A stretch of 57,294 bases of DNA from a virus. Its lineage: Duplodnaviria; Caudoviricetes. The stretch covers positions 1 through 57,294 of the IMG/VR virus record IMGVR_UViG_3300017748_000009; one strand, written 5' to 3'. Below the pieces are notes generated by a model, which was not told the DNA's origin, ran no database searches, and saw only the letters and a program-made list of their open reading frames with translations. A program made the translations under genes and the position numbers. This document shows positions 1-26,081 of this stretch, piece by piece. The stretch's first letter is position 1; the number at the start of each line of letters is the position of its first letter.

Positions 1-123
1 ATCAAGCAAGGTGGTATACTTCCCATGCTCAAGTTTGTAATGCTCAAACTCATCCTTGTCGACTTCTATTTCTACCTCAGCAAATTTGTGGTAGACACTT
101 CGGTTTTGAATTTTTACTTTCAT
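1..123. repeat. Terminal direct repeat, copy 1 (probable circular assembly overlap)
   Basis: 1-123 is identical to 57172-57294 and falls inside a CDS. Confidence 0.95.
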
Positions 124-266
124 ATATATATATATTTAAATTGTTTTGATTTCCATTTCTTGTGCCAATATGTATACTTAGAGTCCTGAGGTCGCAAAAC
201 TATAATGCGACCCCCATTCTCTTTCTGCACACACAACACATTTGTATTCAGCTTTTTAACTATCAT
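120..266 (-). CDS. Small hypothetical early protein (48 aa)
   Basis: Manual translation MIVKKLNTNVLCVQKENGGRIIVLRPQDSKYTYWHKKWKSKQFKYIYI; its stop overlaps (ATGA) the start of the next gene at 123. Confidence 0.55.
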   Translation of the reverse strand: MIVKKLNTNVLCVQKENGGRIIVLRPQDSKYTYWHKKWKSKQFKYIYI

Positions 267-272
267 TAAATT

Positions 273-710
273 TTATTTAAAGATTTCCATTATTTGATTT
301 AACTTATCTTCAATCTCGTTATGCTTTCGATACAAATCTTGGACATTGAAGGCACTCATACGAGCATGGTTTATAAATTCTAATAATATATATGGGTTAT
401 GTTTACCTGTACCCCCAATACTCCAAGTATCTAATTTGTGTTTGGTATATTGTAAGTCATAGGTTTTCCAATCATATATTTCAAACCTACCTTTGTTACC
501 TTCGGTATCAGTTATCTCAATGACCCAAGTCATTTGAACTTTGTCATCACCTGTCTGAATTTCAGAGGGACTGCCAAAAATAAATTTCAAATCACTATAA
601 TATATATTAGTTAAGGCATCTATTTTATGCCCACCTTGAAACGATGCATTAGCTTCGTCTTCTGTGAGAACTTTAATGGTGTTCCCTTCCCATTCTGTAA
701 TTTTTCTCAT
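273..710 (-). CDS. Hypothetical early phage protein
   Basis: 145-aa ORF in the operon, with a DKV..W..IYDWK..WSIGG pattern seen in phage early proteins. Confidence 0.8.
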   Translation of the reverse strand: MRKITEWEGNTIKVLTEDEANASFQGGHKIDALTNIYYSDLKFIFGSPSEIQTGDDKVQMTWVIEITDTEGNKGRFEIYDWKTYDLQYTKHKLDTWSIGGTGKHNPYILLEFINHARMSAFNVQDLYRKHNEIEDKLNQIMEIFK

Positions 711-1072
711 AACTCTGCTTCAAAATTTAATTGGGTTTCCGTTGGGTTATTATCAAACCATTCTTTGATTTGTTTACCCATACGATAATCAGCAAATTCC
801 ATCAAGTCTTCCTGACTAACACCATATTTTTTACAGATGTCATCATTATACCCAACTTCATTGTCGAACATCTTTGTTACTCTTTTTATACATCCTGTTT
901 GCTCGATGTCATTTAACTCCTTACATATATCTTCATAGCTGTCTTCTTTGTGGACAACGTAATCAATATAGTTAGACTCTTGGCTTACGGCTCCAAACCT
1001 TTCACCTGCATCGCTGTTTTGAACGGCAAACATAAATTTTCCATCTATGTCACCTGTGTAATACCTACCCAT
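707..1072 (-). CDS. Hypothetical early protein (start revised to MGRYYTGDIDGKF)
   Basis: The longer ORF start would overlap the upstream gene and a ribozyme; ATG at 1072 follows an A-rich leader. Confidence 0.8.
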   Translation of the reverse strand: MGRYYTGDIDGKFMFAVQNSDAGERFGAVSQESNYIDYVVHKEDSYEDICKELNDIEQTGCIKRVTKMFDNEVGYNDDICKKYGVSQEDLMEFADYRMGKQIKEWFDNNPTETQLNFEAEL

Positions 1073-1094
1073 TTTTTGTAGTGTTTTTAAGTTT

Positions 1095-1157
1095 ATACTG
1101 ACTATGTAGAAGTTGTCTACATAGTTTCGCCATAATCTCAATGGCTCATCAGAGTAT
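1095..1157 (-). ncRNA. Hammerhead ribozyme, type I (HH4)
   Basis: Minus strand reads AUACU-CUGAUGA-GCCAU(ugagauu)AUGGC-GAAA-CUAUGUAGA(caacu)UCUACAUAG-UC^AGUAU. All three stems pair; predicted cut between 1100 and 1099. Confidence 0.93.
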
Positions 1158-1508
1158 TTATTTATCTCTTGACAATTCGTAATCTGTGTCGCTATTGTCA
1201 TTGCATTCAGGACAAGGAGAGGTGTTGGCAAACTCACTTTCGTAAGATGATTGCCAAACGACCCCTTCTCCATCACACACATCACACAAATCTCTTTCCT
1301 GTTCCCACTCTTCAATCAATTCATCATCAAAGAAATAGTTAGTATAGTTGGACTCGCCATCCATTACAATATCTTTAGCGTACTCTTCCATATCGTATTT
1401 ATCCATAAATAAGTTTTCAGGGTCAATATGTTCTTCGGTGTCAAGATGTAGCCACCCTAATTCGTGACCATTTGTAATCATTATTTTATCAAAAATGTAG
1501 TGTTTCAT
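1158..1508 (-). CDS. Acidic early protein with a CxxCxGxG...CxxC zinc finger
   Basis: CDVCDGEG...CPEC motif; very D/E-rich; first gene after the promoter at 1533-1564. Confidence 0.8.
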   Translation of the reverse strand: MKHYIFDKIMITNGHELGWLHLDTEEHIDPENLFMDKYDMEEYAKDIVMDGESNYTNYFFDDELIEEWEQERDLCDVCDGEGVVWQSSYESEFANTSPCPECNDNSDTDYELSRDK

Positions 1509-1532
1509 GTCTGTAGTGTTTTAAATGTTCGA

Positions 1533-1564
1533 CAAATGTACGACAAAATTTCGACATTTCCAAA
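1533..1564 (-). promoter_or_regulatory. Bacteroidota sigma70-type early promoter
   Basis: TTTG(-33)-N20-TACATTTG(-7) on the minus strand; overlaid by CGACA at 1530, 1541 and 1552. Confidence 0.85.
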
Positions 1565-1592
1565 CATTGTAGTGTTTTTTCTTATATATATA

Positions 1593-2744
1593 TTATACTT
1601 TTTCTTTTTGATTATTAAATCTATCTGCCCAACCTTCCCAATTTTCATAGCTTAACTTCTGTTGGTCGGTAACCTTCTCAAGACTAAATAAACTATCTCC
1701 AAAGTCATATACATTAAATTCAAGGCTACTTCCTGATTTGAATATTAAATCTATCTTTCTGAAGGTGTGGTTATATCTTCCATAACCTTTCTTAACAGTT
1801 GCTTTTGGATACTTCTCTTGCAACAACTCCTTAGCCTTATTAAATGCTTGTCTTTGTTTAACATAAGAGTCAAAACTCCATTGACTTTCTTTGTTGGTTT
1901 CAGCAACCTTTTTAAGCAGTCCTTTAGCTGAGTATTGTCTTTCAGTACCTACGATTGCATAGCTACAGTATTTGCCGTTTTTATAGCTTCTCCAACCATT
2001 ACTGTATGCATCTTTTGGCTCTGTCCATTCCCATTTTAAATATGGTGTTTCAACATTATAACTATTCACATATTTAAGGTATTTAACTTTAACATAAAGG
2101 TCTATGCTATGAACAGTAATAATATATTTACTATCACCTATTATAAAACTATACTCTGTTTCTCTGTCCTCTTTATCAACCTTTAGATTATCACCTTCAA
2201 CCCAACCTGCATCAATAAATGCTTGATGTTTAATTTTCTGTTCTTGGTTAATCTTTTCACCTGACTCAGCTATTTCTTTTATAGTTTTAAGATGGTTATT
2301 GGTATCCAATGGCTCTATATCCACCCAATGCTCTTTGAACTCATCAGTAACCTCTTTTTGGTCATATGGATTATTGAAGTCTATTTTGACAGTCTTCAAT
2401 GAGTCCTCAATACGTTTGATTAAATCATCTATTTGGCTCTTAGATTTCCAACCCAAAACACCTGAGCCGTTGTCATCAAAATCGCCATAGTAAAACTTGT
2501 CTGTAAACTCTTGGCTTTTTCCGTCATCAGTATCTTTAAATACTGCCACTTCAAATGAGATGTAGTACTCAGCCATATTGGGTTTGTAGTAGGACTCTTT
2601 ACCTGCCGTTGAGTACATACCCTCACCTGCTACAACCGATAGTTCATATTGACCTATTGTCAATGTACCTTGAACACCCTTCTCACCAAGAGCAGAATGG
2701 TTTTTCCAATTTATATCTTGGAAGTGGAAATTTGCTTTTTTCAT
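1593..2744 (-). CDS. Hypothetical multi-domain early protein (start revised to MKKANF)
   Basis: Long ORF; the upstream in-frame start at 2771 lies inside ribozyme HH3. Confidence 0.8.
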   Translation of the reverse strand: MKKANFHFQDINWKNHSALGEKGVQGTLTIGQYELSVVAGEGMYSTAGKESYYKPNMAEYYISFEVAVFKDTDDGKSQEFTDKFYYGDFDDNGSGVLGWKSKSQIDDLIKRIEDSLKTVKIDFNNPYDQKEVTDEFKEHWVDIEPLDTNNHLKTIKEIAESGEKINQEQKIKHQAFIDAGWVEGDNLKVDKEDRETEYSFIIGDSKYIITVHSIDLYVKVKYLKYVNSYNVETPYLKWEWTEPKDAYSNGWRSYKNGKYCSYAIVGTERQYSAKGLLKKVAETNKESQWSFDSYVKQRQAFNKAKELLQEKYPKATVKKGYGRYNHTFRKIDLIFKSGSSLEFNVYDFGDSLFSLEKVTDQQKLSYENWEGWADRFNNQKEKV

Positions 2745-2758
2745 TTTATTTGATTTTA

Positions 2759-2814
2759 AGATTAAGACCACCTATGAAGGTGGTTTCGACCTATAAGGTC
2801 TCATCAGTTAATCT
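2759..2814 (-). ncRNA. Hammerhead ribozyme, type I (HH3)
   Basis: AGAUUAA-CUGAUGA-GACC(uuaua)GGUC-GAAA-CCACC(uucaua)GGUGG-UC^UUAAUCU; predicted cut between 2766 and 2765; stem I includes the upstream stop codon. Confidence 0.94.
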
Positions 2815-3044
2815 CTCGTTGGGTAAATATCTTCCCACCCATCTACTGAGTTGGGGTAAGCATATGTTCTTGGCTCTTTGTACGGCTCTTGTTCGTAAGG
2901 CTCTACCCAAAAATCTTGTTCTCCCCATCTTTCAATACATTCTGTTGCCTCTTGTTCTGCCTCTGCTGATGTTTTAAAGCCATCTTCCTGTATTACACTC
3001 AGACCAAATTCGTCTATTGTTACTACTTTGTACATTATTTTCAT
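2808..3044 (-). CDS. Small acidic early protein
   Basis: 78-aa ORF with an AT-rich leader like that of its neighbours. Confidence 0.75.
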   Translation of the reverse strand: MKIMYKVVTIDEFGLSVIQEDGFKTSAEAEQEATECIERWGEQDFWVEPYEQEPYKEPRTYAYPNSVDGWEDIYPTRD

Positions 3045-3061
3045 GATATATATATATTAAA

Positions 3062-3415
3062 TTATAATTCTAATCTTCTCTCTTTGATGGCATCACAGAG
3101 TATCTCTCTATAGTCTTGGCTACCCCTTCTTATGGCTCCTACTACATCACCATCTAAGACGGCAGACATGAAGCCACCTTCACTTTTTTTCATGTGAAAT
3201 TTCATGTCCAACTCTTCGTTGTCCATCAGGTAATATGCACAACGACTGCCAATGTGAGAGTCTGTGCCTTGGTATAAAGCTACAAGCATTTGATACCCCT
3301 TAAATGAGGTAAGATATTCGTATTGGTGGTCTTTGTCCTTACGGCTCAAATAATGTGGAGTATAGCAATCGTTTAACTCTATTTTCATTTCGTCTTTAAA
3401 TGTTACTTTTTGCAT
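3062..3415 (-). CDS. Hypothetical early protein
   Basis: 117-aa ORF directly downstream of HH2. Confidence 0.75.
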   Translation of the reverse strand: MQKVTFKDEMKIELNDCYTPHYLSRKDKDHQYEYLTSFKGYQMLVALYQGTDSHIGSRCAYYLMDNEELDMKFHMKKSEGGFMSAVLDGDVVGAIRRGSQDYREILCDAIKERRLEL

Positions 3416-3439
3416 GATATATATATTAAATTAATATTA

Positions 3440-3488
3440 CTGTTTCGACCTTTTGGTCTCATCAGGACAGATACACATCTGCCGACAG
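3440..3488 (-). ncRNA. Hammerhead ribozyme, type III (HH2)
   Basis: CUG-UC^GGCAGA(ugugua)UCUGUC-CUGAUGA-GACC(aaaa)GGUC-GAAA-CAG; predicted cut between 3484 and 3483; preceded by hairpin GGGGUC-GAAA-GACCCC (3490-3505). Confidence 0.92.
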
Positions 3489-3514
3489 AGGGGTCTTTCG
3501 ACCCCCATTTGGAC

Positions 3515-4462
3515 TTACTCTCCAAGGATATAATCTACTGCCTTAGCTGACTTTGTCAGGGCTGATACTACTGCTTTCGCATCCTCTTTTTCAACTGCTT
3601 TCACCCATCCGTTGATATAGGCTTGACTGTTGCTTTCGTCATCTCCACAGTCTGTGCAGATACCTGCTACACCTGATAACACCATCGCACCACTCTCAGC
3701 AATTAACTCCTCAAATGCGTAATCTGCTCTGCTCTTGGTTAACATCTTTGCTGTTGTTACACCATCTCTGTTGAGCCTACTTTCGTGACCTGTGCTGTGT
3801 ACCATCTCATGAAATAATGTTTTATAGAAGTTATCAGAGTTGACAAATTGGCTCATTAACGGCATTACTATTATGTCTTTTAATGGTGAGTAACAGGCTC
3901 TGTCTCCTTCGACTTCTCTAATATCTAACTTAGGGTTGTCCTTCTTATAAACAGATACTATATTTTCTGCTGACTCGATAGGTTGAACATCTTTGTTTGT
4001 CTCTTCGTGTGGTCTCTTAGGAGTTAAACCTGTGCATTGTGCTATGTTCCATACTCTGTAGAAACGAAGATTAAAGTTAGTAAAGATGTCACTTTCGCTA
4101 CAATTTTCTGCTTTCATACATTCTCTTTTAGTCTTGTACCATTTCCCTGAGCCACCCATCGCTGTATAACTGATTAGCCAAAAATATACATCTGTTCCAC
4201 TTTCGCCCTTCTTAACTTTGCCACCTGAGGCTCCAACACTCTTGAAGGTTGACCACTCGTTGTACTCATATCCTTTGTCTGTCATCTCAGCATTTAAGAT
4301 AAAATTGTTAAACCCTTTGTAGGCTCTTCCTGAGGCATTGTTGATAGGAAAATTTAACCCTGCTTTCCATGGTTTAAACCATTGTAAGCCGTCTTTCTTT
4401 AGTCCATCGAGAAGAGTCTGCTTTACTTTCTCGGTTACATCCATTTTGATTTTCTGTGTCAT
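3515..4462 (-). CDS. ardC: ArdC-like antirestriction protein (ssDNA-binding N-domain plus zincin-like MPTase domain)
   Basis: W.KPW, N.SGRAY.G.N, W.TFK, VKKGE, LFHEMVHSTGH, YAFEELIAE and SQAYI.GW motifs. Confidence 0.92.
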   Translation of the reverse strand: MTQKIKMDVTEKVKQTLLDGLKKDGLQWFKPWKAGLNFPINNASGRAYKGFNNFILNAEMTDKGYEYNEWSTFKSVGASGGKVKKGESGTDVYFWLISYTAMGGSGKWYKTKRECMKAENCSESDIFTNFNLRFYRVWNIAQCTGLTPKRPHEETNKDVQPIESAENIVSVYKKDNPKLDIREVEGDRACYSPLKDIIVMPLMSQFVNSDNFYKTLFHEMVHSTGHESRLNRDGVTTAKMLTKSRADYAFEELIAESGAMVLSGVAGICTDCGDDESNSQAYINGWVKAVEKEDAKAVVSALTKSAKAVDYILGE

Positions 4463-4492
4463 TGTGTGTGTTTTAAATTAATATTTATTATT

Positions 4493-4544
4493 CCTGTTTC
4501 GCCTTCTTTGGCTCATCAGCACAGGGTTATCACCTGTGGACAGG
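4493..4544 (-). ncRNA. Hammerhead ribozyme, type III (HH1)
   Basis: CCUG-UC^CACAGG(ugauaac)CCUGUG-CUGAUGA-GCC(aaagaa)GGC-GAAA-CAGG; predicted cut between 4539 and 4538; preceded by hairpin GGGGCA-GAAA-UGUCCC (4545-4560). Confidence 0.93.
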
Positions 4545-4566
4545 GGGACATTTCTGCCCCTATCTG

Positions 4567-4743
4567 CTACCCCTCGAAGCCGTATAAATCGCCAAGGGTT
4601 TGGAAGATTTCATCTCTTCCGTTGTCGTATTCGATAGCTGATATAAAGCCTGATGCATAATCTCTCTCGAGTCTGTCCTCAAGAAAAAATACCTGTTGTG
4701 CCATCTCTGTTGTGTTACCTGTTGTACTGATTGAATGTGTCAT
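4567..4743 (-). CDS. First early gene, small acidic protein (58 aa)
   Basis: Manual translation MTHSISTTGNTTEMAQQVFFLEDRLERDYASGFISAIEYDNGRDEIFQTLGDLYGFEG; lies between the promoter and HH1. Confidence 0.7.
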   Translation of the reverse strand: MTHSISTTGNTTEMAQQVFFLEDRLERDYASGFISAIEYDNGRDEIFQTLGDLYGFEG

Positions 4744-4772
4744 GTTTGTTGATTTAATTATTAATATTTGTT

Positions 4773-4804
4773 CAAATGTAGTTTAAATATATATACACTC
4801 CAAA
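4773..4804 (-). promoter_or_regulatory. Main early promoter (Bacteroidota sigma70-type)
   Basis: TTTG-N20-TACATTTG on the minus strand. Confidence 0.85.
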
Positions 4805-5206
4805 CTTTTTTGCAACTAATTAATTATATTGTCTGTAACTTATTGTATGTCAGCTACTTACAGATGTTAAAAATACTGTCTTTTGTTTACTTAAATTTAG
4901 GTCTACTCTGATGGTATCGAGGGAAGGCTGTTCTCTATTCCCTTTGTTGGTATCACGTCCCACCAAGGAAGGGACACCCTGAAGAGGGGCAACACCTTAA
5001 AAAAGTTTACATGATATATATATCTAAGGGGTCAAGGCTTACAGGTTGACAAGGTCATTAGTCAATAGATAAAACGCCAAAAAATTAGGAATGCAAATTT
5101 TAAAAACAGACCCCCCCCTACGAAAAAAAAGTTGATTTCCCTGACACAGATTTTGCGTGTAGCCATAATATAACCCAATTGCTCTAAGTGTCTAAATAAA
5201 AAATCT

Positions 5207-5214
5207 TATCTTTG
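5207..5214 (+). promoter_or_regulatory. -7 promoter element TATCTTTG
   Basis: Matches TAnnTTTG, 21 nt upstream of ATG 5236. Confidence 0.65.
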
Positions 5215-5235
5215 TAAAAGACAAAAAAAATTATT

Positions 5236-5436
5236 ATGCATTTTAAAATAAAACCCTCAATGATGGGATACGATGTAAAGGATGGTAGGTTAATAAATAA
5301 CGCACCGCCTTTAACTACAGGTATTGACAGAGCAGTAATGTTAAAGAACTCTTTAAAGAGAGCAAAGAAAGTTCAGATGATAGCTGAAGGAAATGAATTA
5401 GCAAATGCTAACATAAACTTATTTAAGAAACTATAA
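5236..5436 (+). CDS. Hypothetical protein
   Basis: 66-aa ORF with its own promoter and terminator. Confidence 0.7.
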   Translation: MHFKIKPSMMGYDVKDGRLINNAPPLTTGIDRAVMLKNSLKRAKKVQMIAEGNELANANINLFKKL

Positions 5437-5499
5437 TTATAGTAGTTTGTTTGTAATGGAGTAAGTTGTTTTTAGTAGTGTTTTAACAACTTAATAATT

Positions 5500-5533
5500 A
5501 AGGGACCCTCCTCATAAGGTCCCTTTTCCTTTT
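5500..5533 (+). terminator. Intrinsic terminator
   Basis: AAGGGACC-N10-GGTCCCTT followed by a T-rich tract. Confidence 0.65.
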
Positions 5534-5560
5534 ATATAATGTTAAGTTTTATATAGTCTG

Positions 5561-5592
5561 TGTTGACTTTATGTTGACTTTGTGTTAACTTT
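5561..5592. repeat. Three tandem TGTTRACTTT repeats, 11-bp period (iteron/operator-like)
   Basis: Copies at 5561, 5572 and 5583; related copies near 5540 and 5636. Confidence 0.75.
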
Positions 5593-5750
5593 AAAATACC
5601 TAACTAACTGATAATCAATTTAATAACTATAATTATGTTGAGTTGACGACTTAAGAGGGGTCATAGACGGAAAAAAAATAATTACGATAAAGAAAAGAGA
5701 GAGAGAGTATAGCGAAAGAAATTTAACACTTGACACTTAATATAATTTAG

Positions 5751-5758
5751 TATATTTG
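5751..5758 (+). promoter_or_regulatory. -7 promoter element TATATTTG for groEL
   Basis: Matches TAnnTTTG upstream of ATG 5781. Confidence 0.65.
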
Positions 5759-5780
5759 CTTTAAATTAAATCTAATACAT

Positions 5781-7400
5781 ATGAATCCAAAAGAACTGCA
5801 CTTTGATAGTGTCGGGCGAAAGAAGCTACTTAGTGGAATAACCCAAATAGCTAAAGCTGTTAAATCTACATTAGGACCCCAAGGGAACACAGTCTTAATA
5901 GAATCACAAGAACACATAGGAGGAATTACTGTGACGAAAGATGGAGTTACAGTAGCTAAATCAATTAATCTATTAGACCCTGTAGAAAACCTAGCGGTTA
6001 GAATAATGAAGGAAGCAGCAGATAAGACTGCAACCTCAGCCGGTGATGGAACAACTACAGCCATTGTATTAACTGAAAGTTTAGTATCTAAAGGTTTAGA
6101 GCTTATAGATGAAAAAGTTAATAGAACAGAAGTATTAAAGTTATTACAAGCTGAGTCTAATACTATTGTTGGTAAATTAAAAAAGAAATCAAAAAAAATA
6201 TCCGGTAAAAAACTAAAAGACGTTGCTGTTATTTCAGCAAACAATGATGAGTTTATTGGAGACTTAATATCTAAAGTATATAATAGCGTTGGTAAAGATG
6301 GTATTGTTACAGTTGAAAAGTCAAATAATCATGAGACATATTTTGAAACGACTAAAGGTATTAAAATTGACAGGGGATATAGTTCTCCACTATTTATTAA
6401 TGACCATAAACACGATGAGTGTATATATGAAAATATAAAAGTTTTAGTAGCTGATGCCGAGATAAGTAATATACTTCAAATAGAAAATGTATTAAAACAA
6501 GTAATTAATAATAAAGACAAGTTACTTATTATTGCTCCTTGCTCTGCAGGATTTACAAACACCATGGCAGCAAATGTAATGAAGAACGGATTAAAGTTAG
6601 TTAGTATACAACCACCCGACTTTGGATACAGACAACACGAGCTTATGAATGACATAGCTCTTGCTGTTGGCGCAACATACTTTAGCGAAAAGACAGGTGA
6701 CGATTTAAGTCTCATCGGTTATGACGATTTGGGTCATTGTTCCAAGGTGATAGTTGGGCGTGATTCAACAGTCGTCATAAAAGATGAGCAAGAAAACAGC
6801 GACTTAATAAAAGAAAGAGTTAAGGAATTATGGGGTGCCCATGATATAAGTAAAAGAAAACAAGACAAATCTTTTATTGAGAAACGTATTGCATCACTTA
6901 CAGGTGGTATTGGTGTTATGTATGTTGGTGGAAACACAGACTTAGAGCAAAAAGAATTATACGATAGGGTTGATGATGCTGTATGTGCAGTAAAGTCTGC
7001 GCTAGAAGAAGGAATACTACCCGGTGGTGGAGTGAGCTTATATAGAGAAGGACTATATTATGAAAACATAAATCCCTTTATTGGTGTTGATGAGCCTAAA
7101 GAATCACACGATTATCACACAAAAAAAATTGCTTACGCAATTTTAAGCTATGCCCTTAAGTCTCCGCTACTACAAATACTTTCTAATGCAGGTATGGATA
7201 ATGATATGTATTCAATTACAGACAATCCTGACGATGGGTATGATGTAAAGAATGAGAAGTGGGGTAATATGATGTCAATGGGAATTATAGACCCAATGAA
7301 AGTTACAAGGTCTGCTTTACAAAATGCAATAAGTGTAGCGATTACATTACTATCTACAAATGCAATAGTAACCATGATAAGAAAAAAGAATGAATCATGA
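5781..7400 (+). CDS. groEL: Phage-encoded chaperonin GroEL
   Basis: TLGP.G, TKDGVTVAK, AGDGTTTA, EEGILPGGG and GIIDP.KV motifs; no GGM tail. Confidence 0.97.
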   Translation: MNPKELHFDSVGRKKLLSGITQIAKAVKSTLGPQGNTVLIESQEHIGGITVTKDGVTVAKSINLLDPVENLAVRIMKEAADKTATSAGDGTTTAIVLTESLVSKGLELIDEKVNRTEVLKLLQAESNTIVGKLKKKSKKISGKKLKDVAVISANNDEFIGDLISKVYNSVGKDGIVTVEKSNNHETYFETTKGIKIDRGYSSPLFINDHKHDECIYENIKVLVADAEISNILQIENVLKQVINNKDKLLIIAPCSAGFTNTMAANVMKNGLKLVSIQPPDFGYRQHELMNDIALAVGATYFSEKTGDDLSLIGYDDLGHCSKVIVGRDSTVVIKDEQENSDLIKERVKELWGAHDISKRKQDKSFIEKRIASLTGGIGVMYVGGNTDLEQKELYDRVDDAVCAVKSALEEGILPGGGVSLYREGLYYENINPFIGVDEPKESHDYHTKKIAYAILSYALKSPLLQILSNAGMDNDMYSITDNPDDGYDVKNEKWGNMMSMGIIDPMKVTRSALQNAISVAITLLSTNAIVTMIRKKNES

Positions 7401-7870: not shown

Positions 7871-8228
7871 AGTTCCTGTATAATTTATCTGTATATTTTT
7901 TATCTGAAAAAATAGTAGTGGGAATATCTTCTCCATTTAGTTTTTTATAAACAGAACTAATAACCCTTTTAGATTTAAATGAGAGTTGGTATATAGCCCT
8001 GTGCTTTCCTACTCTTTTTCTATAGACCTCTATCCAACCATTTCTTTTTAGATTTTCAAATCTGTCTTTATCCCAACTTAAGAGTTCATTAAATTCTTTA
8101 AAGTTTTCTTTAGAAAACCTACCTTCAGATTTTAAAAATAAAATCATTTCTAAATCTGAGGTTGTAAGATTATATTTTGTTTTTATAAAGTAACGAACTA
8201 CTCTCCAATATTTTAGATAGTCTTCCAT
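7836..8228 (-). CDS. Putative winged-helix (MarR-like) transcriptional regulator
   Basis: YNLTTSDLEMILFL...LKRNGWIEV...YQLS.K pattern; only minus-strand gene in the plus arm. Confidence 0.6.
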   Translation of the reverse strand: MEDYLKYWRVVRYFIKTKYNLTTSDLEMILFLKSEGRFSKENFKEFNELLSWDKDRFENLKRNGWIEVYRKRVGKHRAIYQLSFKSKRVISSVYKKLNGEDIPTTIFSDKKYTDKLYRNFIKQLLRPSLE

Positions 8229-25767: not shown

Positions 25768-26013
25768 ATGATGAATAAATTTTTAGAAATTGGAGATTAC
25801 GTTTTTGGTGGAAGTATAATGTATGTTGGTCTAAGTGCAGGAGTTTTAACCCTAAACTATGCGGACAAGAAATTTTCCCTTTCCGGGGGCGGTCAATTTG
25901 TAGCTACCGATAAAGATGCTATTGAAAAAGCTCTTGTAACCGTTTGGGAACAATCGTACACTCGGTCAACCACTAAAGTAAACTTAAGTCAAGCAATAAC
26001 ACTAGTTGAATAA
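25768..26013 (+). CDS. Small putative virion protein, possible paralog of the previous gene
   Basis: 81-aa ORF with a similar MNK start and layout. Confidence 0.7.
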   Translation: MMNKFLEIGDYVFGGSIMYVGLSAGVLTLNYADKKFSLSGGGQFVATDKDAIEKALVTVWEQSYTRSTTKVNLSQAITLVE

Positions 26014-26036
26014 CAATCGTTTTGCTAAAAAACTAT

Positions 26037-26070
26037 AAGAGGGCTAAAAAATTAGTCCTCTTTTTTTTTT
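26037..26070 (+). terminator. Intrinsic terminator
   Basis: AAGAGGGCTAA-AAAA-TTAGTCCTCTT followed by a T run. Confidence 0.85.
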
Positions 26071-26073
26071 GTT

Positions 26074-26081
26074 TATCTTTG
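26074..26081 (+). promoter_or_regulatory. -7 element TATCTTTG
   Basis: Directly after the terminator, before the tail genes. Confidence 0.6.

What the first reader, a model, noticed from the sequence alone, without database searches (positions are those of the whole stretch)
3484..4560. Type III hammerheads carry an extra 5' GAAA hairpin, so ardC is released as an RNA protected at both ends
Seen: both type III ribozymes are directly preceded by a GC-rich GAAA-tetraloop hairpin (GGGGCA-GAAA-UGUCCC at 4545-4560; GGGGUC-GAAA-GACCCC at 3490-3505). The stems differ but both pair, and neither has a U tract. Inference: after cleavage the upstream RNA ends in this hairpin and the downstream RNA starts with stem I. 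The 1055-nt ardC RNA would then be structured at both ends. With a 5'-OH and a cyclic phosphate it is also a possible RtcB substrate, giving a retrozyme-like circular mRNA. Alternatively the hairpin is a structural appendage of a hammerhead variant.
Basis: partly seen in the sequence, partly recalled or inferred. Interest (0 to 1): 0.8.

Follow-up and report, generated by a model that had tools for sequence, protein, structure and literature searches.

The report
Hairpin cap before type III hammerheads
Two self-cutting hammerhead RNAs that flank a marine phage's anti-restriction gene are each preceded by a tight hairpin, a widespread add-on that most likely shields the cut end of the upstream message from degradation.

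Summary
Two canonical type III hammerheads (window 4544-4493 and 3488-3440, minus strand) flank ardC. Each is abutted, with no spacer, by a GC-rich GAAA-tetraloop hairpin that starts 6-8 nt after the upstream stop codon.

The hairpin is conserved in ArdC-syntenic relatives. Its stem sequence changes and its loop varies (GAAA, GCAA, UUCG), so it is not a GAAA-receptor appendage.

In my surveys, an abutting hairpin precedes:
- 71 of 125 distinct type III hammerheads;
- 1 of 100 type I hammerheads;
- 9 of 147 type II hammerheads;
- 75 of 2000 random positions.

A replicate on prokaryote contigs gave 20 of 34. The hairpin tracks an upstream ORF end: 57 with and 17 without when an ORF ends nearby, against 9 with and 32 without otherwise.

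Type-P1 twisters also cut at their 5' edge, and 59 of 86 carry such a hairpin. This is the known optional 'P0', which is also reported for 90% of hatchet ribozymes and is dispensable for hatchet cleavage.

Best reading (0.6): a P0-like 3' cap that leaves the upstream mRNA ending in hairpin, 5-6 nt and a cyclic phosphate.

The circular-mRNA idea has no support: end complementarity is not enriched, the phage has no RtcB, and the reads were uninformative.

Hammerhead arrays around anti-restriction genes are already known. An earlier scan note (e1-3444182) saw a similar cassette in another phage.

The parts
4567..4743 (-). 58-aa ORF, first gene of the minus-strand operon. Its stop codon TAG (4569-4567) lies 6 nt before hairpin 1.
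   Evidence: ORF list; sequence; no Pfam hit; distance.
4545..4560 (-). Hairpin 1 (P0-like): 6 bp including one G-U, GAAA tetraloop, abutting stem III with no spacer.
   Evidence: The syntenic homologues L006/L013/L007 have a 7-bp stem with a UUCG loop at the same place.
4493..4544 (-). Type III hammerhead 1: stem III 5 bp, stem I 6 bp, stem II 3 bp. Cleavage after C4539.
   Evidence: RF00008 36.4 bits; structural finder.
3515..4462 (-). ardC (315 aa): ArdC N-terminal domain plus zincin-like metallopeptidase. The ATG lies 30 nt after hammerhead 1.
   Evidence: Pfam PF08401 2.1e-20 and PF18818 7.7e-27.
3489..3506 (-). Hairpin 2 (P0-like): 7 bp including a closing G-U, GAAA tetraloop. It starts 8 nt after the ardC stop codon and abuts stem III.
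   Evidence: L005 has an 8-bp GAAA hairpin and L006/L013 a 7-bp GCAA hairpin at the same place.
3440..3488 (-). Type III hammerhead 2: stem III 4 bp, stem I 7 bp, stem II 4 bp. Cleavage after C3484.
   Evidence: RF00008 39.5 bits, E 4.1e-5 window-wide.
3062..3415 (-). 117-aa ORF downstream. Its ATG lies 24 nt after hammerhead 2.
2758..2815 (-). Type I hammerhead in the same operon (context and control). Its 5' end overlaps the upstream stop codon and it has no 5' GC hairpin. Cleavage after 2766.
   Evidence: Weak hits to RAGATH-1 (26.6 bits) and RF00163 (22.4 bits).
1095..1157 (-). Type I hammerhead in the same operon (context and control). It starts at the upstream stop codon and has no 5' GC hairpin. 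Cleavage after 1100.

Best explanation
The hairpin is a modular, sequence-free accessory of the processing site. It is the hammerhead counterpart of the 'P0' hairpin of hatchet and type-P1 twister ribozymes.

The phage transcribes the minus-strand operon as a long RNA, and the hammerheads cut it into gene-length messages. In the type III topology the cut lies at the 5' edge of the ribozyme. The upstream message therefore keeps only 5-6 nt of stem III.

The GC-rich tetraloop hairpin sits between the stop codon and stem III. After the cut, the upstream message ends in a stable hairpin, a 5-6 nt tail and a 2',3'-cyclic phosphate. Such an end should be a poor substrate for 3' exonucleases and for tailing, and it keeps the stop codon from being eroded.

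Types I and II need no such hairpin, because their own stem III hairpin stays on the upstream product.

Shown here: the anatomy, its conservation, and its specificity to topology and context. Inferred: cleavage in vivo and the stabilising effect.
For: 1. Anatomy in the window.

2. Conservation with changed stems and loops in ArdC-syntenic loci (93% and 59% protein identity). Pairs with the same ribozyme but different hairpins also exist: L146 against L242, and L006:3464 against L121.

3. Topology specificity. An abutting hairpin is present at 71/125 type III, 1/100 type I and 75/2000 random positions (Fisher p 1.8e-22), and at 9/147 type II. Without the window's family the figures are 14/30 and 51/89. 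These are 63 distinct hairpin sequences from 60 loci.

4. Independent replicate on prokaryote contigs: 20/34.

5. Context. The hairpin is present in 57 and absent in 17 when an ORF ends within 60 nt upstream, against 9 present and 32 absent otherwise (p 1.2e-8). The replicate gave 15/2 against 4/11. The median distance from stop codon to hairpin is 7 nt. For ORF ends with no ribozyme, the base rate of a hairpin is 995/4090, against 50/62 before type III.

6. Types I and II abut the stop codon (median 0 and 2 nt) and have short open stems, yet they lack the hairpin. This argues against a general need for a folding aid or insulator.

7. Cross-class. Of 86 type-P1 twisters, which also cut at their 5' edge, 59 have an abutting hairpin.

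8. Literature. Hatchet P0 is present in about 90% of hatchets, lies a few nt 5' of the cleavage site, is not conserved in sequence, and is not critical for cleavage (PMC4604424, passages). Twister P0 is described as optional (PMC5408937, passage).

9. The tail after the cut is 5-9 nt, with a mode of 6.
Against: There are no in vivo data. The one RNA run that holds this phage gave only four low-depth contigs, and one of them (3450-3644) spans the 3484/3483 cleavage site, so cleavage here is unproven.

The spacer is 0 nt in 51 of 63 distinct hairpins. Coaxial stacking on stem III would predict this as well as a short tail would.

Type III hammerheads with a hairpin have slightly shorter stem III (mean 5.4 against 6.2 bp).

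Of type III hammerheads that follow an ORF, 17 of 74 have no perfect abutting hairpin, and 9 of 41 that do not follow an ORF have one.

The hammerhead calls come from my own structural finder. Rfam recovered 10 of the 16 I checked at E<=0.1, and only one of those reached the gathering score.

The exonuclease length thresholds I rely on are recalled, not checked.
Confidence: 0.6

Rival explanations
1. Folding aid. The hairpin stacks coaxially on the short open stem III, or insulates its 5' strand from the upstream ORF and from terminating ribosomes, so that the ribozyme folds and cuts faster. On this view the benefit goes to catalysis, not to the product.
For: The spacer is 0 nt in 51 of 63 distinct hairpins. 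Stem III is short (median 5 bp) when a hairpin is present and slightly longer when it is absent. The hairpin appears mainly when a translated ORF ends just upstream.
Against: Type I and type II hammerheads also have short open stems (type I stem I median 6 bp; type II stem II is 3-4 bp in the 12 examples printed). They abut stop codons even more closely, yet they carry the hairpin in only 1/100 and 9/147 cases.

Of 54 hairpin-less type III hammerheads, 22 have stem III of 5 bp or less.

The analogous hatchet P0 was reported as not critical for cleavage in vitro (PMC4604424, passage).
Confidence: 0.2
2. The hairpin acts on the transcription or protein level. It could be an RNA polymerase pause or weak termination signal placed before the ribozyme, or a binding site for a phage or host protein.
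For: It sits where intrinsic terminators sit, a few nt after a stop codon. Hairpins are fairly common after ORF ends in general: 995 of 4090.
Against: There is no U tract. Of the 995 background ORF-end hairpins, only 58 had one.

There is no conserved sequence or loop: 63 distinct hairpins with loops of 3-11 nt. This argues against a specific protein.

A pause or termination role would not explain the restriction to 5'-edge-cleaving topologies.
Confidence: 0.1
3. Circular mRNA. The ardC RNA has a 5'-OH and a 2',3'-cyclic phosphate. Its ends could rebuild a hybrid hammerhead, and it would then be joined into a circle by RtcB or by ribozyme reversal.
For: The 3' tail CUGUC of the ardC RNA can pair over 4 bp with the ACAG of the upstream hammerhead that is retained at its 5' end. 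RtcB is common in cellular genomes: 10 of 14 control genomes.
Against: Such cross-pairing of at least 4 bp occurs in 12 of 20 neighbouring type III pairs, against 43% of random pairs, so it is not enriched.

Hairpin 1 caps the first gene's RNA, whose 5' end presumably comes from a promoter and could not be joined in this way.

A circle would need no exonuclease cap.

The phage genome has no RtcB.

Perreault et al. 2011 could not detect circular or spliced products in prophage hammerhead arrays (PMC3088659, passage).
Confidence: 0.05

Closest known systems
P0 hairpin of hatchet ribozymes and optional P0 of type-P1 twister ribozymes (Weinberg 2015; Li et al. 2015, PMC4604424; Gebetsberger and Micura 2016, PMC5408937)
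   Same: A hairpin with no sequence conservation lies 0 to a few nt 5' of the cleavage site of a ribozyme that cuts at its 5' edge. My own sample found it at 59 of 86 type-P1 twisters. For hatchet it was reported dispensable for cleavage.
   Different: Here it sits on a hammerhead, for which I found no description of such a stem. The passages I read gave P0 no function.
Clustered hammerheads flanking single genes in prophages, including the anti-restriction gene ardA (Perreault et al. 2011, PMC3088659)
   Same: There are several hammerheads in one operon, flanking an anti-restriction gene. Processing of a polycistronic RNA was proposed, and circles were considered.
   Different: The passages I read do not mention a 5' hairpin or any dependence on topology.
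Phage T7 early-mRNA RNase III sites and bacterial intercistronic or REP stem-loops (recalled, not checked here)
   Same: This is what it works like. An endonucleolytic cut between cistrons leaves a stable 3' stem-loop on the upstream message, which slows 3' exonucleases.
   Different: Here the cut would be made by the RNA itself, would be independent of the host, and would leave a 2',3'-cyclic phosphate.
RAGATH-1 hammerhead (RF03152)
   Same: It is a hammerhead with an extra 5' hairpin. The window's two type I hammerheads give weak hits to it (29.4 and 26.6 bits; gathering score 56.3).
   Different: The Rfam consensus shown is type I, with a hairpin and a conserved linker ahead of stem I. The topology differs, and the window's type III units do not match it.
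Retrozymes and viroid-like RNAs with type III hammerheads
   Same: Two type III hammerheads flank a unit whose ends carry a 5'-OH and a cyclic phosphate.
   Different: This is a DNA phage operon that encodes proteins. The two ribozymes differ from each other. No circle evidence was found, and end-pairing is not enriched.

Membership tests
Type III hammerhead ribozyme (Rfam RF00008) | Conserved core CUGAUGA ... GAAA, with the A15.1-U16.1 pair and a non-G residue at position 17 | tested here: met
   Both units show the full core with C17.
Type III hammerhead ribozyme (Rfam RF00008) | Three helices, with stems I and II closed by loops and stem III open | tested here: met
   cmscan alignments; structural finder. 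RNAalifold on 16 sequences predicts stems I, II and III, with compensatory changes in 18 of 21 predicted pairs. Those 16 sequences were chosen because they carry hairpins.
Type III hammerhead ribozyme (Rfam RF00008) | Score at or above the Rfam gathering threshold (48.5 bits) | tested here: not met
   39.5 and 36.4 bits. Short stem III and non-viroid loops are typical of the phage examples. Of the 30 ribozyme-rich survey loci scanned at the gathering score, one type III unit passed. One more (L036) passed in the separate check of 7 loci.
Type III hammerhead ribozyme (Rfam RF00008) | Self-cleavage at the predicted site | not testable with these tools
   The only RNA run gave low-depth contigs and cannot show RNA ends.
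P0-type accessory hairpin (hatchet, twister-P1) | A hairpin within a few nt 5' of the 5'-most helix and of the cleavage site | tested here: met
   The gap is 0 nt in both window units and in 51 of 63 distinct survey hairpins.
P0-type accessory hairpin (hatchet, twister-P1) | Pairing is kept while the sequence is not conserved | tested here: met
   63 distinct sequences with varied loops. Homologous loci differ in stem and loop.
P0-type accessory hairpin (hatchet, twister-P1) | Dispensable for catalysis | not testable with these tools
   Indirect only: 54 of 125 type III hammerheads lack it.
Intrinsic (Rho-independent) terminator | GC-rich hairpin followed by a U tract | tested here: not met
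   The hairpins are followed by CCUGUC and CUGUC. The scan of 1-6000 lists neither hairpin.
Retrozyme / viroid-like circular RNA | A head-to-tail junction, or ends that specifically rebuild a ribozyme | tested here: inconclusive
   No joints were seen, but coverage was too thin. A 4-bp cross-pairing is possible here, yet such pairing is not enriched among 20 neighbour pairs.
RAGATH-1 hammerhead (RF03152) | Type I topology with a 5' hairpin and a conserved linker | tested here: not met
   The type III units give no RF03152 hit. Only the type I units at 1095-1175 and 2761-2842 hit weakly.

The most novel reading that the evidence does not exclude
One design rule may cover bacterial and phage self-cleaving ribozymes. 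They would be mRNA-processing signals built so that the upstream message always ends in a hairpin. Topologies that cut at their 5' edge (type III hammerhead, type-P1 twister, hatchet) recruit a separate, sequence-free hairpin, the P0. Topologies that cut further in (type I and II hammerheads) use their own stem III for this. That would give the unexplained P0 stems a function. It would also be the first comparative evidence that the upstream cleavage product is kept and used.
Probability: 0.5. Interest if true: 0.7.

Novelty: new variant of a known kind. Interest (0 to 1): 0.6.

Why it matters
The biological role of the thousands of hammerhead and twister ribozymes in bacteria and phages is still called speculative in the reviews I read (PMC6765202 and PMC5408937, passages).

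An accessory hairpin that appears only where the ribozyme's own topology would leave the upstream message bare, and mainly when a gene ends just upstream, points to a role. It suggests these ribozymes serve to make stable, gene-length messages. It would also give a function to the P0 stems of hatchet and twister.

The idea can be tested directly with simple reporter constructs. It also offers a compact, host-independent part for engineered operons: hairpin, then ribozyme, then leader.

Tried and rejected
GAAA tetraloop-receptor docking: rejected. Homologues and survey hairpins carry UUCG, GCAA, UCAA and other loops.

Intrinsic terminator: rejected, because there is no U tract.

Alternative fold. 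RNAfold of 4490-4565 prefers an extended helix in which the upstream GAUAGGGG pairs with CCCCUGUC and hides the cleavage site. The upstream complement is not kept in L006/L007, so I dropped this.

Reads. One RNA run (X20, oligo-dT, contigs only) gave four low-depth pieces. There were no joints and no ends. One piece spans the 3484/3483 site. I take this as neither support nor refutation of cleavage or of circles.

BLAST of hairpin plus hammerhead against cultured phages: no match.

Rfam at gathering score on the window: no hit.

Rfam at gathering score on 30 ribozyme-rich loci, looking for hatchet, twister or HDV-like ribozymes to widen the test: only hammerheads were found (18 type II, 1 type I, 1 type III).

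Twister-P1 in 150 genomes of one class: 3 sub-threshold matches in 2 genomes. Two of the three had an abutting hairpin. I then moved to a pattern scan.

Covariance model of hairpin plus hammerhead: not built. MAFFT put the hairpins out of register, so I used a structural finder with controls instead.

RNAalifold on A1 predicts the hairpin. Those 16 rows were picked because they have hairpins, so I do not count that covariation as a test.

The 'inside a long open frame' filter for false hammerheads was uninformative.

I did not classify the 30 twister matches without an open P1, so the within-twister control was not done.

Their alignments might already show a 5' hairpin on type III hammerheads.

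Full report
WHAT IS THERE. The window is a complete 57,294-bp viral record with direct terminal repeats. Its GC content is 33%. It is held by marine and viral metagenome runs.

Bases 1-4750 form a minus-strand operon of small genes. One of them is ardC (3515-4462), with an ArdC N-terminal domain and a zincin-like peptidase domain.

Four hammerheads lie between the genes. Two are type I, at 2815-2758 and 1157-1095. Two are type III, at 4544-4493 and 3488-3440. The type III units have the complete canonical core and C17. They score 36.4 and 39.5 bits against RF00008, below the gathering score of 48.5, so by Rfam's own cut-off they are sub-threshold.

Hairpin 1 (4560-4545) has 6 bp and a GAAA loop. 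Hairpin 2 (3506-3489) has 7 bp with a closing G-U and a GAAA loop. They start 6 and 8 nt after the upstream stop codons and abut stem III with no spacer. Alone they fold at -9.3 and -13.3 kcal/mol. Neither has a U tract. The window's minus strand has only 13 distinct hairpins of at least 6 bp with at least 4 GC pairs, and four of them belong to hammerhead units.

HOMOLOGOUS LOCI. A search with ArdC gave 15 viral loci.
- The closest relative (L005, 93% identity) has an 8-bp GAAA hairpin before the downstream hammerhead.
- Relatives at 57-59% identity (L006, L013, L007) keep the two hairpin-hammerhead units around ardC (L007, a cut locus, holds only the upstream one). Their hairpins are a 7-bp UUCG hairpin upstream and a 7-bp GCAA hairpin downstream.
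- In ArdC relatives at 35-38% identity (L016, L019), type I hammerheads with no such hairpin flank ardC instead.

So the hairpin is conserved as a structure, while its stem and its loop class change. This excludes a GAAA-specific tertiary contact.

SURVEY. That gave 243 loci and 2.06 Mb, which I searched with my own structural finder.

An abutting hairpin was defined as gap of at most 2 nt, at least 5 perfect bp and at least 3 GC pairs. Among distinct units it precedes:
- 71 of 125 type III hammerheads;
- 1 of 100 type I hammerheads;
- 75 of 2000 random positions (Fisher p 1.8e-22 for III against I).

The 26 nt upstream fold at a mean of -9.1 (type III), -2.3 (type I) and -2.6 kcal/mol (random). 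The 26 nt downstream fold at -1.3 for both types. Without the window's own family the figures are 14/30 and 51/89.

A third scan gave type II hammerheads. Of 147, 9 have such a hairpin.

The 71 hairpins are 63 distinct sequences from 60 loci. Stems are 5-13 bp, 38 of 63 loops are tetraloops, and stem GC is 0.73 against 0.43 for the loci.

As a replicate, a scan of prokaryote genome contigs gave 34 type III hammerheads, 20 with the hairpin. This includes an array of nine in one MAG contig (L454), eight of which carry different hairpins.

As a check of my finder, Rfam at E<=0.1 recovered 10 of 16 of my calls in seven loci. At gathering score it named 20 more of the survey hammerheads.

CONTEXT. 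When an open frame of at least 60 codons ends within 60 nt upstream of a type III hammerhead, the hairpin is present in 57 cases and absent in 17. Otherwise it is present in 9 and absent in 32 (p 1.2e-8). The replicate gave 15/2 against 4/11. The median distance from stop codon to hairpin is 7 nt.

Type I and II hammerheads abut the stop codon directly (median 0 and 2 nt) and have no hairpin. With a looser criterion, a hairpin starts within 15 nt of the stop at 995 of 4090 ORF ends that have no ribozyme, against 50 of 62 ORF ends before a type III hammerhead.

After the cut, the tail beyond the hairpin would be 5-9 nt, most often 6.

WHY I READ IT AS A CAP ON THE UPSTREAM PRODUCT. Type III is the only hammerhead topology in which the upstream product keeps no ribozyme helix. 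In types I and II it ends in the closed stem III, median 6-7 bp. The hairpin follows exactly this asymmetry.

The main rival is that the hairpin stacks on a short open helix, or insulates it. That rival predicts the same need in type I (open stem I, median 6 bp) and in type II (open stem II of 3-4 bp in the examples printed). Those types sit even closer to stop codons, yet they lack the hairpin.

Of 54 hairpin-less type III hammerheads, 22 have stem III of 5 bp or less. So the hairpin does not appear to be required for the fold.

A test across ribozyme classes agrees. Type-P1 twisters also cut at their 5' edge. Of 86 distinct ones from a viral scan, 59 have an abutting GC hairpin, in 41 distinct sequences.

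This turns out to be the known optional 'P0' of twister (PMC5408937, passage). Hatchet ribozymes cut at their very 5' end. They carry a P0 in about 90% of cases, a few nt from the cleavage site, without sequence conservation and not critical for cleavage in vitro (PMC4604424 and PMC10761166, passages). The passages I read give P0 no role.

The protective effect itself is inference. It rests on recalled knowledge that 3' exonucleases need a single-stranded toehold longer than a few nucleotides, and that tailing needs a 3'-OH.

THE CIRCLE IDEA. The ardC RNA's 3' tail could pair over 4 bp with the stem III strand that is kept at its 5' end. Such cross-pairing is found in 12 of 20 neighbouring type III pairs against 43% of random pairs, so it is not enriched. 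The first hairpin caps an RNA that starts at a promoter region; promoter-like sites lie at 5194-4786. The phage has no RtcB. Perreault et al. 2011 did not detect circles in prophage arrays (PMC3088659, passage). The reads could not test it.

WHAT IS KNOWN AND WHAT IS NEW. Hammerhead arrays that flank single genes in prophages, including the anti-restriction gene ardA, and the idea of polycistronic processing are in print (PMC3088659; review PMC6765202, passages). P0 stems of twister and hatchet are in print.

In seven full-text searches, I found no description of a P0-like hairpin on type III hammerheads, of its dependence on topology and on an upstream ORF, or of a function for P0. Supplements are closed and Weinberg et al. 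2015 is not held, so I cannot exclude that it has been shown there.

That agrees with what I find.

VERDICT. The 'protected ends' reading is supported by comparison but is untested in vivo. The GAAA-appendage reading is not supported. The circular-RNA reading is not supported either, though it is not excluded. I class the finding as a new variant of a known kind.

Noticed in passing
viral loci L483 onward and L480 (G075:C7): Type-P1 twister ribozymes in viral contigs carry an abutting GC hairpin (the literature's optional P0) in 59 of 86 distinct cases. It often lies just after a stop codon.
   Followed up: partly
L454 (MAG contig, genome contigs) 438-7390: An array of nine type III hammerheads in 7 kb. 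Eight are preceded by different 9-11 bp GC hairpins. Rfam recovered five of the nine at E<=0.1.
   Followed up: partly
window 3425-3505: Short contigs from several marine runs match only the hammerhead core (about 3440-3481) and diverge on both sides. One is from an RNA library and also covers the hairpin. Near-identical ribozyme cores therefore sit in other genomic contexts in these samples.
   Followed up: no
window 8006-8033 (-); L121 3733-3765: A sub-threshold DUF805b RNA match in the window (21.6 bits; gathering score 35.6). A relative's locus has a match above threshold (42.7 bits).
   Followed up: no
window 4750-5250 (-): About 500 nt of non-coding leader lies upstream of the first small gene. 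It has a G8 run, GC-rich segments and promoter-like sites. I did not look for structure there.
   Followed up: no
window 3438-3416, 3061-3045, 140-120 (-): A repeated AT-rich leader of the form TTAATTTAATATATATATC directly precedes several start codons, with no Shine-Dalgarno-like purine run.
   Followed up: no
window 4540-4565 (-): The minimum-energy fold pairs GAUAGGGG upstream of hairpin 1 with CCCCUGUC, which would hide the cleavage site. The complement is not kept in L006/L007.
   Followed up: partly
L016, L019: ArdC relatives at 35-38% identity are also flanked by hammerheads, but of type I. Linkage of anti-restriction genes to ribozymes therefore recurs across ribozyme topologies.
   Followed up: partly
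window 25985-26074 (+): A weak L20_leader hit (29.6 bits; gathering score 58.7). It is essentially a GC hairpin followed by a run of U. This shows that the phage's ordinary terminators do have U tracts.
   Followed up: no
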